From Rubripirellula sp. (GTDB lineage: Bacteria > Planctomycetota > Planctomycetia > Pirellulales > Pirellulaceae), in the NCBI GenBank assembly GCA_965216875.1, contig OZ244207.1, positions 4,000,001 to 4,064,000 on the forward strand: DNA of 64,000 bases. Direction: 5' to 3'. Below, in pieces: positions 36,001 to 42,000 of this stretch (within the stretch, counting starts at the first letter, position 1; the number at the start of each line of letters is the position of its first letter). Position numbers: made by a program.

Positions 36001-39000
36001 TGCTTGGCGTCGCCCCCAGTGCCATCAGCGTCCCGAGTTCACGTTTGCGTTCGGAAACGTTGGCGAACATGACGCTCGCGATGCTCGCACCCCCGATCAC
36101 CATCAAGATGCCAAAGATCGCATAGGACAGTCGGTTCATGAGGCGGTTGACGGTCACTTGAGCTTGCACGATCTGCGAGATCGTGACAACGCGAGAATCG
36201 GGCAACAGCTCGCCCAATTCCCCGACCAAGCCAGTGGCCGCTTCTTCGCAGCAACCCATCACTTCGATCACGTTGACGATCGGCCCGGTGTCAGCAAGCT
36301 CTTGAACGCGATGCAGGTGGGCGAGTACGCGACCATCGTCGCTTGTTCCGGTTGCAGGCAGGATACCGGCAACACGAAAGGAATCGCCGAGTAGCTCGAT
36401 CGACTGTCCTTCTTTGATCCCCTGCGACTTGGCCAAGTCGGCACCGACCAGTGCCGAATCCATGTCCAGTTCATGAACGATTCGCGTGGCCGCATAGGAA
36501 CTCAGGTCCGTCTTTTCGTCCGACGCAATTTGACACGCTTTCCCACCACACCCTTCGTGCTTCTTGCCGACACCGTTCATTTCGAATCCGGCTGAGAGCA
36601 AATCGACACTCTGCCATGCCGATTTCTTGTAGAACTCGGTTCGCGGCAAGATGCCGGTCACGACAATCGCGTTGTCGCCAAGCTGGGCTGGAACGGAAAG
36701 CTTGGGGGCGAGTTCCTCGACTCCCACCTTTTGAGCCAACGTGATGCGCGTCACGTATTCCTCAGGCAGCGATTTCCCATGGGTGTCCGCGGCGTGATAA
36801 TCCTGCAGCGTCACGCCTTCGGGAAGAACAAGGATGTTGGCGCCAAGCTGCGCCATTTGCGACGCCACCTTCTGCTCGGACGAAGCCACAACGCTTTCAA
36901 CCGCGACGAGTGCCGAGACGCCGAGCGCGACGATCAGCAATGCGGTCAGGCTGTGCCCGGGTCGGCGCAACACTTCTTTCCAAACCAAAGAATGAAAGTT
37001 CATGGACGGTTCCTACGTCTCAAGCGGCTAGATGGCGAACAACGGCAGCGGCGGTGATTACTTTTTCTTCTGGCACTTGCTGCAGTTGCATTTGCCTGAC
37101 TTGTGAAGTTGCGTCGCAAGTTCCTCACCGGTAACCGTTGCTTGGTAGGTTCCGAGATGGGTTCCTGGAGGTGCGAACATGAGAACGACGGGAGCGTCGA
37201 GCGTGGTGTCGACATGCATGCGACGAAAGAACTCGCCCTCTTCCGCATTGGTTGCTGACGCGTTGATGCTGTAGAGTTTGTTTTTGAACGCGGGATCTTT
37301 CAGCAGTGCGGTGACGCCAGCGGGCATTTGTGATTGCGATGCAGGCATCAAGCAGACGACCGCGATTTTTTGGCTCTGCAGAGCCTTCACCATTTCGGCG
37401 TACTTGGGCGTCAAGATGGCGTTGGTCAATTGTTGCTCGTCGACCTTTTGGCGGTAGACACCGGTCACGGCACCATTGGGAGCCACACCGAAGACGGCCG
37501 GTAGCGGAATGCGCGATGCGTCGAACCGCTTGATCAGTGCCGCCTCTTTGCGATCGCGAACGTTGACGGTTACCCAAGTCGTTTTTTCGGACGTTTCGGA
37601 AACGTGATCGCGAATCGTGCTCGCCATTTTCTGGGTCGCCGAGTCGTTCGAGCGGTAGAACATCACGTAGGTGTATTTGCCCTTCTCACTCGCTGCATCG
37701 ACCTGCTCTGCCGTCGTTGCGGCTCGGCCAAGCGATGGAAACAGGACGGCGGCGGCGAGAAACAAACCGAGTGGACAGCGCATGGAGCACTCTCTAATTG
37801 GGTGGCGAAAGGAAAAACAGCACGGGCGGGATCGACCAACATTCCCGCTTGTGCTGATCGATCCAAAACTGACGAACAATCAAGTCAACGTCTCACGGCC
37901 GTCAAACCATCGCCAATCGGCATAAGTTCACATGGGTCGTCGATGCGCCGTTTGTACCCCCCTCGTTCCAACGCTCCGCGTGGGAACGCACTCTTCGGAC
38001 GCTCCGCGTCCACTTCACCTGAGCCGCTCGCGCTAGCGTCGGGCCCTTCGAGATATGCAGAACGCAATACGCGATCACCGCTCACCCATCTCCCACGCCT
38101 CACCTCAGTCGCTGAGCGATAGCGTGCGGTTTTCAAAACGGCAACCCGATGGGAAAACCGCACGCTATCGCGTTTCGGCTGACGCCGGCCGTGGAATTGA
38201 CGGTGCCTCGACGCTAGCGCGTTCGGCACGTGCCGTAGGCCGGATCAAGGAGCGACAGCGACGCGGATCCGGCAAGCTCCACTCACGCGATCGAAACGAC
38301 GGGTGGTTCTTTTTGCAAGGCATCCAGCGCGACCGGCAGGTACTCGGGGCTATCTTGAAGCAGCTGTTCCATGTGTGCCCGGGGATCATCGACCCAACGC
38401 GTGAACGCTTTGGCAAACAACTCAACGAATTCGTAATCACAGGCTTGCAGCGCGCGCAACAGATTGCGGTTGGCCAACTTGAGCGTCGCCTCAGGAACCG
38501 TTTCGAGTGTGCTGAGCGCGTAGACGCCAGCGAAGACGACATGACGTGCCGGACTTTCAAGCAGATGCGTGGCAACCTCAAGGGTGATGTCGTCCAGCTT
38601 TCCAAGTCGAGTCACCGTGCACATGGCCTTGGCACGGACTTCGTCATCACGGTGGTCCGACGATAGCTTGAGCTCTGCGACAATCGCTTCGCTTGCCACT
38701 TCTGGACATTGGCCTGACATTCTTTCAACCGCTTCGATCGCGTTCAACCGGATCGCTCGATTGGGTGATCGCAGTTTCTCGAGCACCAACGTCTCGTGCC
38801 GGTCGCTCAGTTTTGAACTCGATGACACGTGACGAAGGGCAATGACCTGCGAAGAAACGAACGGACTCGCAGCGAGCTCCCACCACTGAGGTTCCGACTG
38901 GTTGCACAGGCTCTGCTTCTTCGCCGGCTGGTAAAACGAGTCGTTGGTTTTGAGCAAGTATTTCAGCGAGCCTTGCATTGGTCGTTTCAGTTCGCCAAGC

Positions 39001-42000
39001 AGGTCGCTCGCCCAGTCCGGTTTGTTCGCTTCACGTGTCCATCCAGCAAGGGCGACTGCGTATGCCAGGCTCTGCGTATCGAGGAAGGGACGTGGCGCAA
39101 TGTTCCACTGGGTCGAGTCCCAAAACGTTGCAGCTTTTCCGACCAGCAAGACGCTGCTGCGCGGCATCCCCAATCCCGTCGCGATCACTGCCAGCTCGAC
39201 GACTTCGGGCAAGCGTGCTTCGGCGAGATCATTTTGGTGCAGCATGTCCTCGACAACGCCATGGATGAGTGTTGCCATCCCGAGCGCTGGCTCGCTGTCC
39301 AATTCTTCCGTCAATCGGATCGATCGTGTGCTTGGATCATATTGTCCCAACAGACCGCTGGGACCTTCGCATGAGCCGCCGCCTCATCCACCGCCGCCAC
39401 AACTGGCAGCTTTGGGTGAATGAACGACTTCGAATTGGACGCCCGAAGTGTCGTGGCGAAGATGGTCACCCAGGAAGCGAATGATGTCTGCCGGCGATTT
39501 TGAATCGACCCTCTCGACCAGCGACGAGAGACGCAAGATCGGCAGCTTCATACGTTCGAGCCCAATGCATTCGGCGATCTGCTGGAAATGGAACTCAATT
39601 CGCGCCTTCTCGGAGTCTGGCAAATTCGGCTTCGGCTTAAAAAACACAGCTATCTTCCTGCAAATTGGGGCCCGGACGATTGCGGCCGGAGAATTAGGGA
39701 ACAATTGGGGCCTGCTGGCGTGACGGTACAGGATGTTGCTCGTGAAAGCACTCCCGATTCTTGGTGCGGCAGCCCTTGGCTATTCGCTCGGGACTGCGGG
39801 ACTCGAATGCTTGTATTTGCAGGATCCTGTCCGCAGGCAGCAACCCTGATTCATTTCCGCTTGGGTGCGAGAAGCGACCGGGGCGGACAAGCATCCATCC
39901 GCGACGCTGGATAGGCTGCAAGGGCTGATATGATATCTGTCTTTGCCGTTACCACATTTGAAGGTCGACGCCTGTGCTCGCGTCTTTGAATCTGATTGTC
40001 GGTTCTCTGGTTGCCGCTGGCGTGTTGTCAGGCGTTCTTTTTTGGTGGTTCAAGCGAGACTGGTTTGCTGGATTGGGAGTCGCTGCTGCATCCGGCGCCC
40101 TTGCCGGGCTCATCACGCTTACATGGCCCGACCCTGGCCCTCTGGACGTAGAAGGCCAGCGGGAGGCGGCGCACCTGGATACTCGCAATCTCAGAGCGAA
40201 ACCGAACCAGTCCGACTTGGCTGACCAAAGGGCCGACCAAGAACGTCAACGGCGGTTGATGTTGGCGAGCGTCGAGACGTACGCCCCCTACCGGCCAGCC
40301 GAAAAACCGAGCGCGGGATACGTTGCATCGGATGCGTGTCGGGAGTGTCACAAAGAGAACTACGAGACCTGGCACGATTCTTATCATCGCACAATGACAC
40401 AAGTCGCCACTCCCGATGCGGTCTATGCGAACTTCGACAATCACGAAATCACGCTCCGAGGACGTCACTACCGATTGACGCGCAACGGCGAAGTATGTCA
40501 GGCGGAGATGTTTGACCCCGATTATCCGCCCTCGCCTCAAACGCGAATGAAAGTCCCACTTGTGATGGTCACTGGCTCTCACCACATGCAAGTTTTTTGG
40601 TATCCGGGCTTCGCACCGCGGACTCTCGGTCAATTGCCCATCGTTTACCTGAAAGAAACCCAGCAATGGATTCCGCGTCGTGCTGCGTTCTTGGTGCCAC
40701 CGGACGAGCCGGTTTCGAGTGAGCTTGGGCGTTGGAACGAAGGTTGTTCCAATTGCCATTCAACTCATCGACGCGAGCGTTGGCGCGAGCCCGGCACCTG
40801 GGATACCGAAGTTACAGAGCTTGGCATTTCCTGCGAAGCTTGCCACGGTCCAGGCGAAGAGCACATCGCTCTCCATCGGGCACAGGCGTCAGACATTCGT
40901 AATGACCCAATTATCAACCCAGCTAGTCTTTCACACGTAGCCTCTTCACACACCTGTGGACAATGTCATGGCAAAACATCTCTCAAGACAAGCGGCAGTC
41001 ACCTGAACGAGTCTGGGCACGACTTCCGCCCCGGTGACGACCTGAACGACACGCATCATATTTGGGAGCGTGACAGCAAGGTCGTGCGTGACTTTGTTGC
41101 GTCGATGAATTTTAAAGAGGGAGCCGACGCGGCGCTGCGGCGCGTTTATTGGGACGACGGCAACATACGAGTATCGGGCCGAGAGTTTAACGGCATGGCC
41201 CATTCGGCTTGCTTCCAACGAGGGGAGATTTCATGTCTATCCTGCCACCAAATGCATCAATCTGAATCCGACCAACGCGATCGAATGGAGTGGGCCAACG
41301 ACCAGCTTTCGGTAACCGGTTTGGATGACCATGCTTGCACACAGTGCCACAAAGCAAGCGACTACGGCGAATCGCACACTCACCATGCCGCAGCTTCAGC
41401 TGGCTCACGTTGCTACAACTGCCACATGCCTCATACGAGTTATGGGCTCATCAAAGCGATGCGCAGCCACACGATCACCAGCCCCATCCTGGCAAAAGAC
41501 TTGAAAGTAAAACGCCCCAACGCGTGTAACCTCTGTCACTTGGACCAAACACTACAGTGGACGTCAAACCAGTTATCGAAGTGGTACGGCATCGAAGAGG
41601 TAGCGGATCTTTCCGATGAGCAAAAGACGGTCGCAGCGTCAGTGATTGGACTGCTCAAAGGCGATGCTGGTGAGCGAGCACTTTGGGTTTGTTCGATGGG
41701 TTGGCAACCAGCGCAACAAGCCTCAGGCAACGATTGGATGGCGCCATTCCTAGCCCGACTGATGGTTGACCCCTATCCCGCAGTACGCTTGATGGCGCGT
41801 CGATCTTTACGAACCTTGCCGGGATTGCATGATCTTCAATTCAACGCCGTCGCACCGGAACCAGAACGAGAAAACGTCCTGGCAAGGACGCTCGCGGGTT
41901 GGAGCCACGAAGCTGTCAAAGACAAACGCCCCGCGATCCTGATTGAAGACACCGGACTACAGACCGACCGGATTGAGGCAATGATGAAGCAGCGGGATGA

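What a model noticed while it worked through the whole genome (the two positions that open the first line are those of the whole stretch)
38283..39704. Selenocysteine inside a glycine run (CGGGG-U-GGGSCEGP) of a 473-aa protein of unknown family
The called gene g03086 (331 aa) is the 3' part of a 473-codon minus-strand gene that starts at 4039704 and reads through a TGA at codon 107. The Sec lies in a Gly-rich, Cys-flanked loop (SCGGGG-U-GGGSCEGP) ahead of a helical-repeat-like body. The family has no Pfam or NCBIfam model.
Evidence so far: The frame is open for 106 codons before and 366 after the TGA, with coding-like codon use on both sides (0.19/0.29; call 85). Of 28 other Pirellulaceae genomes searched, two have an orthologue. 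One (50% id) has one TGA at the same place (QCGGGG-U-GGGSCEGP), and the other (54% id) has Cys (STGGGC-C-GGSSCSGP). A hairpin lies 24 nt after the TGA: CCCAGC-GGTCT-GTTGGG here and CCCGGC-GGTCT-GCCGGG in the Sec orthologue, a compensatory change. There is no NCBIfam hit.
(Added by a program. Inside this text positions count along the whole contig: contig position 4,000,001 is position 1 of the stretch shown here. "Call 12" and the like, gene names such as g00115 and contig names such as C1 are that model's own, and its searches are not shown. The text may have been shortened before it was handed on; [...] marks where a part breaks off. The agent that wrote the report below was given it as the finding of a first reader that could run no searches.)

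Follow-up and report, generated by a model that had tools for sequence, protein, structure and literature searches.

The report
New selenoprotein on dead-protease scaffold
This gene very probably encodes a real, previously uncatalogued selenocysteine protein of marine planctomycetes, in which the selenium sits on a floppy glycine loop added to an inactivated protease-like domain joined to a helical-repeat domain; what it does is still unknown.

Summary
The minus-strand frame is open across one TGA (window 39384-39386) in SCGGGG-U-GGGSCEGP. The start is wrong by 19 codons: the gene starts at GTG 39647, giving 454 aa with Sec88.

The family is not rare. Of 400 other Pirellulaceae genomes, 45 hold an orthologue. 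Of 47 gene copies including the window's, 29 have TGA and 18 have Cys in the same column. A 6-bp hairpin 21 nt after the TGA pairs in 98.2% of cells with compensatory changes in the TGA forms, but only 70.6% in the Cys forms. selA is found in 25 of 27 TGA-form genomes and 2 of 18 Cys-form genomes. The window's genome has tRNA-Sec, selA, selB and selD.

The protein has an N-terminal zincin-like domain that has lost HExxH, which 17 of 36 distant relatives keep. It has gained a 22-26-residue Gly/Cys/Sec loop and carries C-terminal HEAT repeats. It is not among the 119 families of a 2026 review. A 2016 supplementary table may list one member. Function is inferred only: a reactive selenol arm, either redox or metal binding.

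The parts
38283..39647 (-). Corrected selenoprotein gene: 454 codons plus stop (TGA 38283-38285)
   Evidence: Read-through frame. Start set by alignment to full-length Cys relatives and by start-codon conservation. A single tblastn HSP in one frame in all 47 copies, so no frameshift.
39645..39647 (-).
   Evidence: GTG or ATG occupies this column in 30 of 40 loci, and ATG lies one codon upstream in the other 10.
39384..39386 (-). In-frame TGA, read as selenocysteine 88
   Evidence: TGA occurs in 29 and TGC/TGT in 18 of 47 orthologous copies in the same column. It is unchanged in an independent metagenome contig that differs at 8 other sites.
39344..39364 (-). bSECIS-like hairpin: 8-bp stem in this genome (6 bp conserved), loop GGUCU. 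27 nt lie between the UGA and the loop.
   Evidence: In TGA forms 98.2% of cells pair and 3 of 6 pairs show compensatory change, with 0 of 500 shuffles as high. Cys forms pair in 70.6%.
39360..39416 (-). Codons for the Gly/Cys/Sec loop (residues 78-96: Cys83, Sec88, Cys93). The insertion is specific to this subfamily and is predicted to be disordered.
   Evidence: pLDDT is below 50 over residues 78-96 and 83-97. The loop is 22-26 residues with 3 Cys/Sec here, against mostly 8 residues and no Cys in 35 of 36 distant relatives.
38913..39647 (-). N-terminal zincin-like (SprT/minigluzincin-like) domain, residues 1-245
   Evidence: AF2 model with pLDDT 84.3. The best structural matches are all zincins: 6mdx Z 7.1, 4jiu 6.7, 4qhf 6.1, 4jix 6.1. 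Distant relatives carry HExxH and give sub-threshold SprT-like hits.
39249..39263 (-). Vestigial active-site motif H129-G-V-V-E133, in the place of HExxH
   Evidence: HExxH is present in 0 of 47 subfamily copies and in 17 of 36 distant relatives at this column. The third-ligand position reads HE in relatives and P147-E148 here.
38307..38900 (-). C-terminal HEAT/armadillo-like repeat domain, residues ~250-447
   Evidence: Sub-threshold HEAT_2 and Adaptin_N hits, which pass the threshold in relatives. Foldseek and profile matches to alphaRep and designed armadillo proteins.
38234..38273 (.). 40-nt dispersed palindromic repeat just after the stop codon. It probably marks the end of the transcription unit and is not part of the gene.
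   Evidence: Three copies in the window against 0 expected. Very high contig depth and many loose ends at this spot.

Best explanation
The gene (window 39647 to 38283, minus strand) is a genuine selenoprotein gene. UGA88 is recoded to selenocysteine by the organism's SelA/SelB/SelD/tRNA-Sec system, guided by a small bSECIS hairpin that starts 21 nt downstream inside the reading frame.

The product is a 454-aa, probably cytoplasmic, two-domain protein. The N-terminal domain is a zincin-type metallopeptidase fold that has lost all its zinc and catalytic residues, making it a pseudo-protease. The C-terminal domain is a HEAT-repeat solenoid, the usual protein-binding module. The subfamily is set apart from its relatives by a 22-26-residue glycine-rich, disordered loop inserted between two strands of the zincin sheet. 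That loop carries Sec88 and, four residues on, Cys93 (U-G-G-G-S/T-C), often with a third Cys upstream.

Inferred mechanism: the loop is a mobile arm whose selenol is the working group. Most likely it cycles through a Sec88-Cys93 selenenylsulfide, acting as a redox or thiol-exchange arm on a partner held by the HEAT domain. Alternatively it clamps a soft metal or metalloid. In lineages that lost the Sec machinery the residue was replaced by Cys and the hairpin decayed.

Shown by computation: recoding signals, homology, domain folds, and loss of HExxH. Inferred: the chemistry of the loop, the role of the HEAT domain, and the cytoplasmic location. The confidence figure refers to 'real selenoprotein of this architecture'. 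The redox-arm chemistry on its own I put at about 0.4.
For: Recoding:
- One in-frame TGA with open frame on both sides, and a single-frame HSP in all 47 copies.
- 29 TGA and 18 Cys codons fall in one column, within the conserved motif GGG-[U/C]-GGG-S/T-C.
- In TGA forms the hairpin at alignment columns 25-30/36-41 pairs in 98.2% of 168 cells. Three of 6 pairs show both-sided changes (9 cells). None of 500 shuffles reaches this, and slid controls pair at <=49.4%.
- Some compensations change the protein, for example S-G-L-L with CCCAGC/GUUGGG against G-G-L-P with CUCGGC/GCCGGG.
- Cys forms pair in only 70.6%, no better than shuffles (64/500), and pair 28-38 is broken in 14 of 17.
- Geometry fits the published bSECIS model: 27 nt to the loop where the allowed range is 16-37, and G in the first two loop positions (review PMC13188914, section 5 passages).
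- A Prx-like UxxC selenoprotein gene of the same genome has a 6-bp stem with loop GGUCG after its TGA.
- The genome has tRNA-Sec (71.5 bits), selB, selA and selD, all over their cut-offs.
- selA is found in 25 of 27 other TGA-form genomes and in 2 of 18 Cys-form genomes.
- The TGA is kept in an independent metagenome contig with 8 differences elsewhere in the gene, 3 of them synonymous.
- Database gene calls split as expected: N-terminal pieces of 82-136 aa end at profile position 86-87, and C-terminal pieces begin at positions 93-390, many of them at 99-136.

Architecture:
- AF2 gives pLDDT 85.4 and pTM 0.83, with the loop at residues 78-96 disordered.
- The C-domain matches HEAT/ARM repeat proteins.
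- The N-domain's best matches are zincins.
- The profile search found a ~450-aa superfamily (E 1e-28 to 1e-15) that lacks the loop. Of 36 such relatives aligned, 17 carry HExxH where the subfamily has H/N-G-V-V-x.
- The window's own genome holds a stand-alone paralogue with HELAH.

Sec as the key residue: Sec/Cys88 is invariant. Cys93 is present in 27 of 29 Sec forms and 18 of 18 Cys forms. The upstream Cys is present in 18 of 29 Sec forms.
Against: - There is no direct evidence of selenium incorporation and no proteomics. No RNA run was listed.
- The hairpin is short and lies on codons for a conserved G-L-G-G-L-P-G stretch, so part of its conservation is protein-level.
- Folded alone, the 70-nt stretch is not unusually stable (z -0.9).
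- Rfam gave no SECIS match, although bacterial SECIS elements of this kind may have no model there.
- Two TGA-form genomes showed no selA (drafts, 88% and 92% complete), and two selA-positive genomes keep Cys.
- Fold matches of the N-domain are modest: Z <= 7.1, within the range the tool warns can be a common arrangement. Foldseek found nothing at E <= 0.001.
- The loop is disordered and model coordinates could not be read, so its position relative to the old active-site cleft is unknown.
- U-x4-C is not a classical redox motif (UxxC or CxxU).
- No conserved gene neighbourhood gives a functional hint.
Confidence: 0.88

Rival explanations
1. Same selenoprotein, different chemistry. The Cys/Sec loop is a soft-metal or metalloid binding site (for example Zn, Cu(I), Hg, Cd or As(III)) that functionally replaces the lost HExxH zinc site, so the protein is a metal sensor, chaperone or scavenger.
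For: The three zinc-ligand positions of the relatives are lost exactly in the subfamily that gained the loop. All 18 Cys forms carry three Cys in the loop, as CC or C-x3/4-C-x4-C, which looks more like a thiolate cluster than a two-residue redox pair. The review states that about 20% of known selenoprotein families are predicted to bind atoms or chemical moieties, roughly 70% of those metals or metal-derived (PMC13188914, section 7 passage).
Against: Eleven of 29 Sec forms have no third Cys, and two have Sec alone. The subfamily's HLxHD motif keeps only its first His invariant. No metal-transport or resistance genes are conserved next to the gene. No structure places ligands together.
Confidence: 0.3
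2. Same selenoprotein, used as a carrier. The selenol/thiol loop carries a persulfide or perselenide, or another covalently bound group, and hands it to a partner docked on the HEAT domain.
For: A single essential Sec/Cys on a flexible loop, retained even when Cys93 is missing in 2 of 29 Sec forms, fits carrier chemistry. That sulfur-relay proteins use loop cysteines is recalled knowledge and was not tested here. HEAT domains typically bind partners.
Against: There is no homology to any known relay protein and no conserved neighbour such as a desulfurase. The near-invariance of Cys93 argues for a two-residue mechanism.
Confidence: 0.12
3. The TGA is a true stop. The locus is a split gene (an 87-aa N-piece plus a separately initiated C-piece) or a decaying pseudogene, and the hairpin is a by-product of codon conservation.
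For: Gene callers annotate it this way. The single-sequence fold is not significant. There is no expression data.
Against: The 11-30 codons between the TGA and any possible restart are conserved in frame as protein. All 29 stops are TGA, never TAA or TAG, in the very column that is Cys in the 18 others. This holds over lineages down to 37% identity, which is incompatible with pseudogenes. The hairpin covaries only in TGA forms. TGA forms track selA.
Confidence: 0.04
4. UGA88 is read through by something other than Sec, such as near-cognate Trp/Cys insertion or another recoding, or it is an assembly error.
For: None specific. It cannot be excluded without protein chemistry.
Against: Identical sequence appears in contigs of four runs from three studies, including a 99.5%-identical strain that keeps the TGA. 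The link to selA presence and the SelB-type hairpin point to the Sec pathway.
Confidence: 0.02

Closest known systems
Computationally defined bacterial selenoprotein families (119 families/subfamilies in Table 1 of the 2026 review PMC13188914; Table 1 read in full)
   Same: An in-frame UGA aligned with Cys in homologues, an in-frame bSECIS hairpin with G in the first loop positions at 16-37 nt, and occurrence only in genomes with selA/selB/selD/tRNA-Sec.
   Different: No listed family has this motif (GGG-U-GGG-S-C) or this architecture. The words HEAT and Planctomyc- do not occur in the review text. The protein hits none of the Pfam or NCBIfam models that define those families. Most known families are thioredoxin-fold with UxxC or CxxU. 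This one is a zincin-like fold with U-x4-C on a disordered loop.
Minimal zincin metallopeptidases: SprT/SPRTN-Wss1 domain (6mdx) and minigluzincins (abylysin 4jiu, selecase 4qhf, jannalysin 4jix)
   Same: The predicted fold of residues ~36-174: a backing helix, a three-stranded sheet, then a long 'active-site' helix. Distant sequence relatives carry HExxH on that helix and give near-threshold SprT-like hits (P0200: 25.5 bits against a cut-off of 25.6).
   Different: HExxH and the third ligand are absent in all 47 subfamily copies, so it cannot be a zinc peptidase. It has a 22-26-residue Sec/Cys loop that none of these have, and a fused HEAT domain.
Loop-less ~450-aa 'zincin + HEAT' proteins (uncharacterised superfamily found by profile search; 723 representatives at E<=0.001)
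   Same: Same length and domain order, 19-27% identity over the whole length, and shared motifs (GLG...AN, Y196, W212, KTxDS, CDxE).
   Different: They lack the loop (usually 8 residues, no Cys), and about half keep HExxH (17 of 36 aligned). None of those aligned has an in-frame TGA.
Flexible Sec-bearing arms in characterised enzymes: the N-terminal Gly-rich Sec/Cys loop of SelD (the review, calls it a flexible Se-binding loop) and the C-terminal Gly-Cys-Sec-Gly arm of mammalian thioredoxin reductase (recalled, not from a call)
   Same: A selenol on a glycine-rich, mobile segment next to a Cys. This is a working analogy for how the loop could act.
   Different: There is no sequence or fold relation. 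Here the loop is internal and sits on a pseudo-protease domain. No nucleotide- or flavin-binding domain is present.
Unnamed 'hypothetical' selenoprotein candidate of planctomycete P1 (Kim et al. 2016, PMC4807772, Table S9; the supplement was read)
   Same: It is listed as two adjacent gene calls split by TGA, SECIS predicted, and its closest hit is a Rhodopirellula sallentina protein with Cys at the aligned site. R. sallentina does have a Cys-form orthologue of the present family (P0030).
   Different: No sequence, motif, family definition or analysis is given there, so identity with this family could not be verified.

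Membership tests
Bacterial selenoprotein gene (SelB/bSECIS-dependent UGA recoding) | In-frame UGA with conserved coding sequence on both sides | tested here: met
   There is one TGA in one frame, and protein conservation runs across it in 29 copies.
Bacterial selenoprotein gene (SelB/bSECIS-dependent UGA recoding) | Homologues with Cys aligned to the UGA | tested here: met
   18 of 47 orthologous copies have TGC/TGT in the same column.
Bacterial selenoprotein gene (SelB/bSECIS-dependent UGA recoding) | Stem-loop just downstream, 16-37 nt from the UGA to a small apical loop with G in the first two positions (model quoted in PMC13188914) | tested here: met
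   The spacing is 27 nt and the loop is GGUCU or AGUUU. 98.2% of cells pair, with compensatory changes in 3 of 6 pairs. The hairpin has decayed in Cys forms.
Bacterial selenoprotein gene (SelB/bSECIS-dependent UGA recoding) | Sec machinery in the same genome | tested here: met
   tRNA-Sec, selB, selA and selD are over their cut-offs in G000. selA is found in 25 of 27 other TGA-form genomes.
Bacterial selenoprotein gene (SelB/bSECIS-dependent UGA recoding) | Selenium found in the protein (75Se labelling or mass spectrometry) | not testable with these tools
   No proteomic data. No RNA run was listed.
Any of the catalogued prokaryotic selenoprotein families | Match to the defining Pfam/NCBIfam model | tested here: not met
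   NCBIfam gave 0 hits at E<=1. Pfam gave only sub-threshold HEAT-type hits. The motif is absent from Table 1. Families defined only by cd or PTHR identifiers could not be scanned.
Zincin metallopeptidase (SprT-like / minigluzincin) | HExxH zinc-binding and catalytic motif on the active-site helix, plus a third ligand | tested here: not met
   The window has H-G-V-V-E, and 0 of 47 subfamily copies have HExxH. The third-ligand position HE reads P-E.
Zincin metallopeptidase (SprT-like / minigluzincin) | Zincin fold (mixed sheet plus active-site helix) | tested here: inconclusive
   The top VIA matches are all zincins but with Z of only 5.0-7.1. Foldseek found nothing at E<=0.001. The reading is supported indirectly by HExxH-bearing sequence relatives and by weak SprT-like, DUF6782 and M78 hits in them.
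HEAT-repeat proteins | Tandem helical-hairpin repeats matching HEAT models | tested here: met
   This protein is below the cut-off (HEAT_2 19.4 against 27.7 bits), but relatives are over it. The model is all-helical over residues 250-445 with Foldseek E 1e-4 to alphaRep/armadillo proteins, and the profile reaches E 1e-72 to alphaRep chains.
Thioredoxin-fold redox selenoproteins | UxxC or CxxU motif on a thioredoxin fold | tested here: not met
   The motif is U-x4-C on a disordered loop. There are no Trx-type hits.

The most novel reading that the evidence does not exclude
This is a lineage-born selenoprotein. Within Pirellulaceae, a zinc protease-like protein lost its metal site and at the same time acquired a glycine loop that was selenocysteine-bearing from the start. 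In the outgroup-rooted tree every early branch is Sec, and Cys appears only in nested clades, mostly in genomes without selA. The selenol loop now does the job the zinc once did, holding a soft metal or performing catalysis in the old cleft. That would make it a rare case where Sec is ancestral rather than a substitute for Cys, and where selenium chemistry re-functionalises a dead enzyme scaffold.
Probability: 0.3. Interest if true: 0.75.

Novelty: new variant of a known kind. Interest (0 to 1): 0.6.

Why it matters
Nearly all catalogued bacterial selenoproteins are thioredoxin-fold or metal-cofactor oxidoreductases in which Sec replaces a known catalytic Cys. Here Sec is the defining residue of a family with no known function. 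It sits on an intrinsically disordered glycine loop grafted onto a pseudo-protease fused to a protein-binding solenoid.

If confirmed, it adds a selenoprotein family with a new structural context. It also gives a clean natural experiment: 29 Sec copies against 18 Cys copies, with loss of the hairpin and of selA going together. That series shows how Sec genes revert to Cys when the machinery is lost.

There is a practical consequence too. The gene is mis-annotated as truncated or split in most Sec-form genomes and metagenomes. The marine Pirellulaceae that carry it include cultured strains, so the function is experimentally reachable.

Tried and rejected
- Conserved gene neighbourhood. The window's neighbours are two unknown ORFs, an FtsX/ABC pair, a multihaem cytochrome c and an SDR. 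None was found beside any orthologue within 1.5-kb flanks. No flanking ORF cluster is shared by more than 4 of 47 loci. This gives no functional hint.
- Rfam. The only hit was a meaningless one at E 5.9.
- Single-sequence folding. The hairpin is predicted, but the overall stability is not unusual (z -0.9).
- Foldseek on the full model returned only repeat proteins. On the N-domain alone it found nothing at E<=0.001.
- PDB sequence-profile search. Only the HEAT part matched among the 60 rows shown.
- ESM Atlas. The natural Cys orthologue P0005 gave unnamed clusters at 0.94 and only weak leads (0.76-0.79) to SprT-like, M48, M78 and DA1.
- RNA evidence. No RNA holder was listed.
- Earlier notes of this scan. 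Nothing on this place or sequence.
- Phylum-wide sample. 0 of 400 other genomes matched at E<=1e-20, but only 2 of those were Pirellulaceae. The subfamily was therefore not found outside the family in those searched.
- 'Hypothetical protein DG' (motif GUxG) is a Desulfosediminicola protein with its own NCBIfam model, which did not hit.
- GOS_A reads ...GEPUAKF..., so it is unrelated. The strings GGUGGG and GGGSCEG are absent from the four GOS supplement files and the one Sargasso supplement file.
- The careful maximum-likelihood tree did not finish in two 300-s runs. Only the quick SH-aLRT tree was used.
- The weak second match in the window's own genome is a stand-alone HELAH zincin-like paralogue. 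Its TGA is simply its stop codon, so it is not a second selenoprotein.
- The subfamily's HLxHD was considered as a metal site, but only its first His is invariant.

Full report
OBSERVATION

Translating window 38283-39704 on the minus strand with TGA read as U gives 473 codons. There is one internal TGA at codon 107 (window 39384-39386) in the context SCGGGG-U-GGGSCEGP, and a terminal TGA. Under table 11 the frame falls into a 106-aa and a 355-aa ORF. The annotated 331-aa product is the 3' part (P0002).

In this genome it is an 8-bp stem, GUCCCAGC/GUUGGGAC, with loop GGUCU at 39344-39364. Pfam gives only sub-threshold HEAT/Adaptin hits, and NCBIfam gives nothing at E<=1.

START CODON

Forty of the 47 orthologous loci have a residue at that column; the other 7 do not. 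Of those 40, the codon is GTG in 23 and ATG in 7, and the other 10 have ATG one codon upstream. In many loci an in-frame stop lies 0-9 codons upstream with no alternative start.

The gene is therefore 39647 to 38283, 454 aa, with Sec at residue 88. AGGAAG lies 6 nt before the GTG.

IS THE TGA A SELENOCYSTEINE CODON?

(a) Machinery. The window's genome (one 8.26-Mb contig) has tRNA-Sec (71.5 bits) and a selD-selA-selB cluster, all above curated cut-offs.

(b) Sec/Cys pair.
- A six-frame search of 400 other genomes of the same family gave 46 strong matches (E <= 1e-82) in 45 genomes, followed by a gap to 1e-18.
- Every copy is a single tblastn HSP in one frame.
- In the alignment of the 47 copies (window included), 29 have TGA and 18 have TGC/TGT in the same column. 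The surrounding motif is GGG-[U/C]-GGG-S/T-C-[E/D]-G.
- No copy has TAA or TAG at that column.

(c) SECIS.
- Aligning the TGA plus 57 nt of the 29 TGA forms needs no gaps.
- The helix at columns 25-30/36-41 forms a standard pair in 98.2% of 168 cells.
- Three of its six pairs show changes on both sides (9 cells).
- None of 500 shuffles reaches the observed pairing or covariation score, and sliding the partner by 1-3 columns drops pairing to 22-49%.
- RNAalifold finds the same helix on its own.
- Some compensations cost an amino-acid change, for example CCCAGC/GUUGGG coding S-G-L-L against CUCGGC/GCCGGG coding G-G-L-P. Codon conservation alone therefore does not explain the helix.
- In the 18 Cys forms the same columns pair in only 70.6%, no better than shuffles, and pair 28-38 is broken in 14 of 17 distinct sequences.
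- Geometry fits the published bacterial model: 27 nt from the UGA to a small loop whose first or second base is G followed by G or U (review PMC13188914, passages of section 5).
- A Prx-like UxxC selenoprotein gene of the same genome carries a 6-bp stem with loop GGUCG after its TGA. A TxxU peroxiredoxin gene carries a 7-bp stem with loop CGUGA.

(d) Co-occurrence. selA is found in 25 of the 27 other genomes with a TGA form; the two misses are drafts, 88% and 92% complete. It is found in only 2 of the 18 genomes with a Cys form.

(e) Not an assembly error.
- Contigs of two runs of the same organism label match without a difference.
- A contig from an independent algal metagenome differs at 8 sites across the stretch but not in the TGA.
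- A fourth run covers the TGA without change.
- Of the 7 differences inside the gene, 3 are synonymous, including two upstream of the TGA.

(f) Database footprints.
- Among 118 protein clusters found, 34 are full length (442-477 aa) and 83 are shorter pieces of 263-368 aa.
- The profile search also recovers N-terminal pieces of 82-136 aa that match profile positions 1-87 and stop there.
- This is what gene callers produce from a Sec gene.

Against the reading: there is no protein-level evidence, no RNA run was listed, the isolated 70-nt fold is unremarkable (z -0.9), and Rfam has no match. I put the recoding at about 0.9.

WHAT THE PROTEIN IS

AlphaFold2 with 34 relatives gives pLDDT 85.4 and pTM 0.83.

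Residues 250-445 are a helical-repeat solenoid. They match alphaRep and armadillo designs (Foldseek E 1e-4; profile E 1e-72).

The N-terminal 245 residues, folded alone with 50 sequences (pLDDT 84.3), show a helix, a three-stranded sheet (71-74, 101-104, 109-112) and a long helix (120-138). VIA-align against 48,161 chains ranks zincin metallopeptidases first:
- SPRTN SprT domain 6mdx: Z 7.1, rmsd 3.1, 107 aligned.
- Abylysin 4jiu: Z 6.7.
- Selecase 4qhf: Z 6.1.
- Jannalysin 4jix: Z 6.1.
- Then HtpX, ArdC, aminopeptidase N and others.

These Z values are modest and the tool warns about such scores. Sequence evidence agrees, however:
- The profile search of 1.84 billion representatives finds 723 proteins at E<=0.001, including many ~450-aa proteins that match end to end at E 1e-28 to 1e-15.
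- Of 36 such relatives aligned, 17 carry HExxH exactly where the subfamily has H/N-G-V-V-x, and most of these have H-E where the subfamily has P-E.
- Relatives give near-threshold SprT-like hits (25.5 against 25.6 bits) and weak DUF6782 and M78 hits, and they pass the HEAT_2 threshold.
- The window's own genome holds a stand-alone paralogue of the N-domain with HELAH.

None of the 47 subfamily copies has HExxH. The N-domain is therefore best described as a degenerate zincin, a pseudo-protease.

THE LOOP

The Sec lies in a segment predicted to be disordered (pLDDT below 50 over residues 78-96, and 83-97), between the first two strands.
- The segment is 22-26 residues long with three Cys/Sec in all 14 subfamily members aligned.
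- In 25 of 36 distant relatives it is 8 residues, and 35 of 36 have no Cys there. It is thus a subfamily-specific insertion.
- Within the 47 copies, Sec/Cys88 is invariant.
- Cys93 is present in 27 of 29 Sec forms and all 18 Cys forms.
- A third, upstream Cys is present in 18 of 29 Sec forms and all 18 Cys forms, at varying positions: CC, C-x3-C or C-x4-U.

A second conserved but low-confidence segment (WDSTQW...PRPF, residues 176-188) is also subfamily-specific. I could not read model coordinates, so whether these segments meet at the old cleft is unknown.

EVOLUTION

I built a quick IQ-TREE (SH-aLRT supports only; the careful search did not finish) rooted with four loop-less relatives.
- All early-branching subfamily lineages are Sec.
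- The Cys forms are a nested clade of 16 (99% support), all from selA-less genomes, plus two singletons from selA-positive genomes.
- At least three changes of state are needed, against a mean of 18 when labels are shuffled.
- The simplest reading is that Sec is ancestral and was replaced by Cys three times, once together with loss of the machinery. This rests on a long outgroup branch and on unresolved basal forks.
- One genome (G387) has two copies, both Sec.

In a phylum-wide sample of 400 genomes, only two of them Pirellulaceae, none had a match at E<=1e-20. Named database members are all Pirellulaceae genera.

HOW IT PROBABLY WORKS

Shown by computation: a canonical SelB/bSECIS recoding set-up, and a two-domain protein whose only subfamily-defining chemistry is a Sec-x4-Cys pair on a mobile glycine loop.

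Inferred:
- The loop is a reactive arm. I favour a selenenylsulfide-forming redox or thiol-exchange arm that acts on a partner bound by the HEAT domain (about 0.4).
- Next comes a soft-metal or metalloid site that replaces the lost zinc site (about 0.3). The three-Cys pattern of the Cys forms and the simultaneous loss of HExxH speak for this.
- Then a persulfide, perselenide or adduct carrier (about 0.12).
- The N-terminus shows no hydrophobic leader, so a cytoplasmic location is assumed.

Nothing in the neighbourhood helps. The neighbours differ between genomes, and a dispersed 40-nt palindromic repeat right after the stop suggests a monocistronic unit.

COMPARISON WITH WHAT IS KNOWN

Table 1 of the 2026 review (119 families, read in full) contains no family with this motif or architecture. 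Its text never mentions HEAT or planctomycetes.

The NCBIfam and Pfam models that define most of those families do not hit. 'Hypothetical protein DG' (GUxG) is a Desulfosediminicola protein (passages of PMC12013277). GOS_A is unrelated, and the motif strings are absent from the GOS and Sargasso supplements.

Full-text searches gave nothing relevant beyond one paper:
- selenocysteine + Pirellulaceae: 0 papers.
- selenoprotein + HEAT repeat + bacteria + SECIS: 1 irrelevant paper.
- selenoprotein + Rhodopirellula: 4 papers.

That one paper is Kim et al. 2016 (PMC4807772). Its Table S9, which I read, lists for a planctomycete 'P1' a split 'hypothetical' candidate with a predicted SECIS. Its closest hit is a Rhodopirellula sallentina protein with Cys. 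R. sallentina has a Cys-form member of this family (P0030), so that line may be the first sighting. No sequence or description is given there.

Haft & Tolstoy 2025 was not held. The supplements of Deng et al. 2026 were not seen. Either could hold an unnamed candidate.

VERDICT

This is a well-supported new selenoprotein family with an unusual structural setting and unknown function. The Sec-insertion mechanism itself is ordinary. The interest lies in three things: the non-thioredoxin, pseudo-protease context; the probably ancestral Sec; and the clean Sec-to-Cys series. Interest 0.6; novelty: a new variant of a known kind.

Noticed in passing
window 38234-38273; also 19372-19411 (+) and 57251-57290 (-): A 40-nt dispersed repeat with inverted arms GCCGGATC...GATCCGGC. 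It has 3 copies in the window (0 expected) and lies 10 nt after the gene's stop. In the laid contigs this spot has depth in the tens of thousands and many loose ends, so the element is highly repeated genome-wide (a REP-like or terminator-like element).
   Followed up: partly
L070 741-1310 (own genome, about 2.04 Mb before the window): A stand-alone paralogue of the N-terminal zincin-like domain with an intact HELAH motif, no Sec/Cys loop and no HEAT domain. Its TGA is an ordinary stop after ...IFHPG.
   Followed up: partly
L075 and L084 (own genome); also G000:C1:4481535-4481927 and G000:C1:333080-333394: Other likely selenoprotein genes of the same genome. One is a peroxiredoxin with FTGG-U-TKEC and one is a Prx-like protein with HW-U-PHC, each with a hairpin after the TGA (loops CGUGA and GGUCG). 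Two further matches with one in-frame TGA were not examined: an AhpC-TSA-like match, and a formate-dehydrogenase-like fragment about 2.5 kb from the sel gene cluster.
   Followed up: partly
own genome, G000:C1:325282-330621: selD, selA and selB lie side by side on one strand. The selD match sits in a 749-aa open frame, so selD is probably fused to another domain.
   Followed up: no
orthologous loci L023-L069, start column: The unusual GTG start is conserved: 23 of the 40 orthologues with a residue at that column use GTG, and only 7 use ATG.
   Followed up: no
window 39974-42025 (+): A divergently oriented 683-aa multihaem cytochrome c gene (Cytochrome_C7 and C554 hits) starts 327 nt upstream of the selenoprotein gene. 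It is not conserved beside the orthologues.
   Followed up: partly
L052 and L066 (genome G387): One draft genome carries two diverged copies of the family, both with TGA. The genome's contamination is given as 6%, so the second copy may come from another organism.
   Followed up: no
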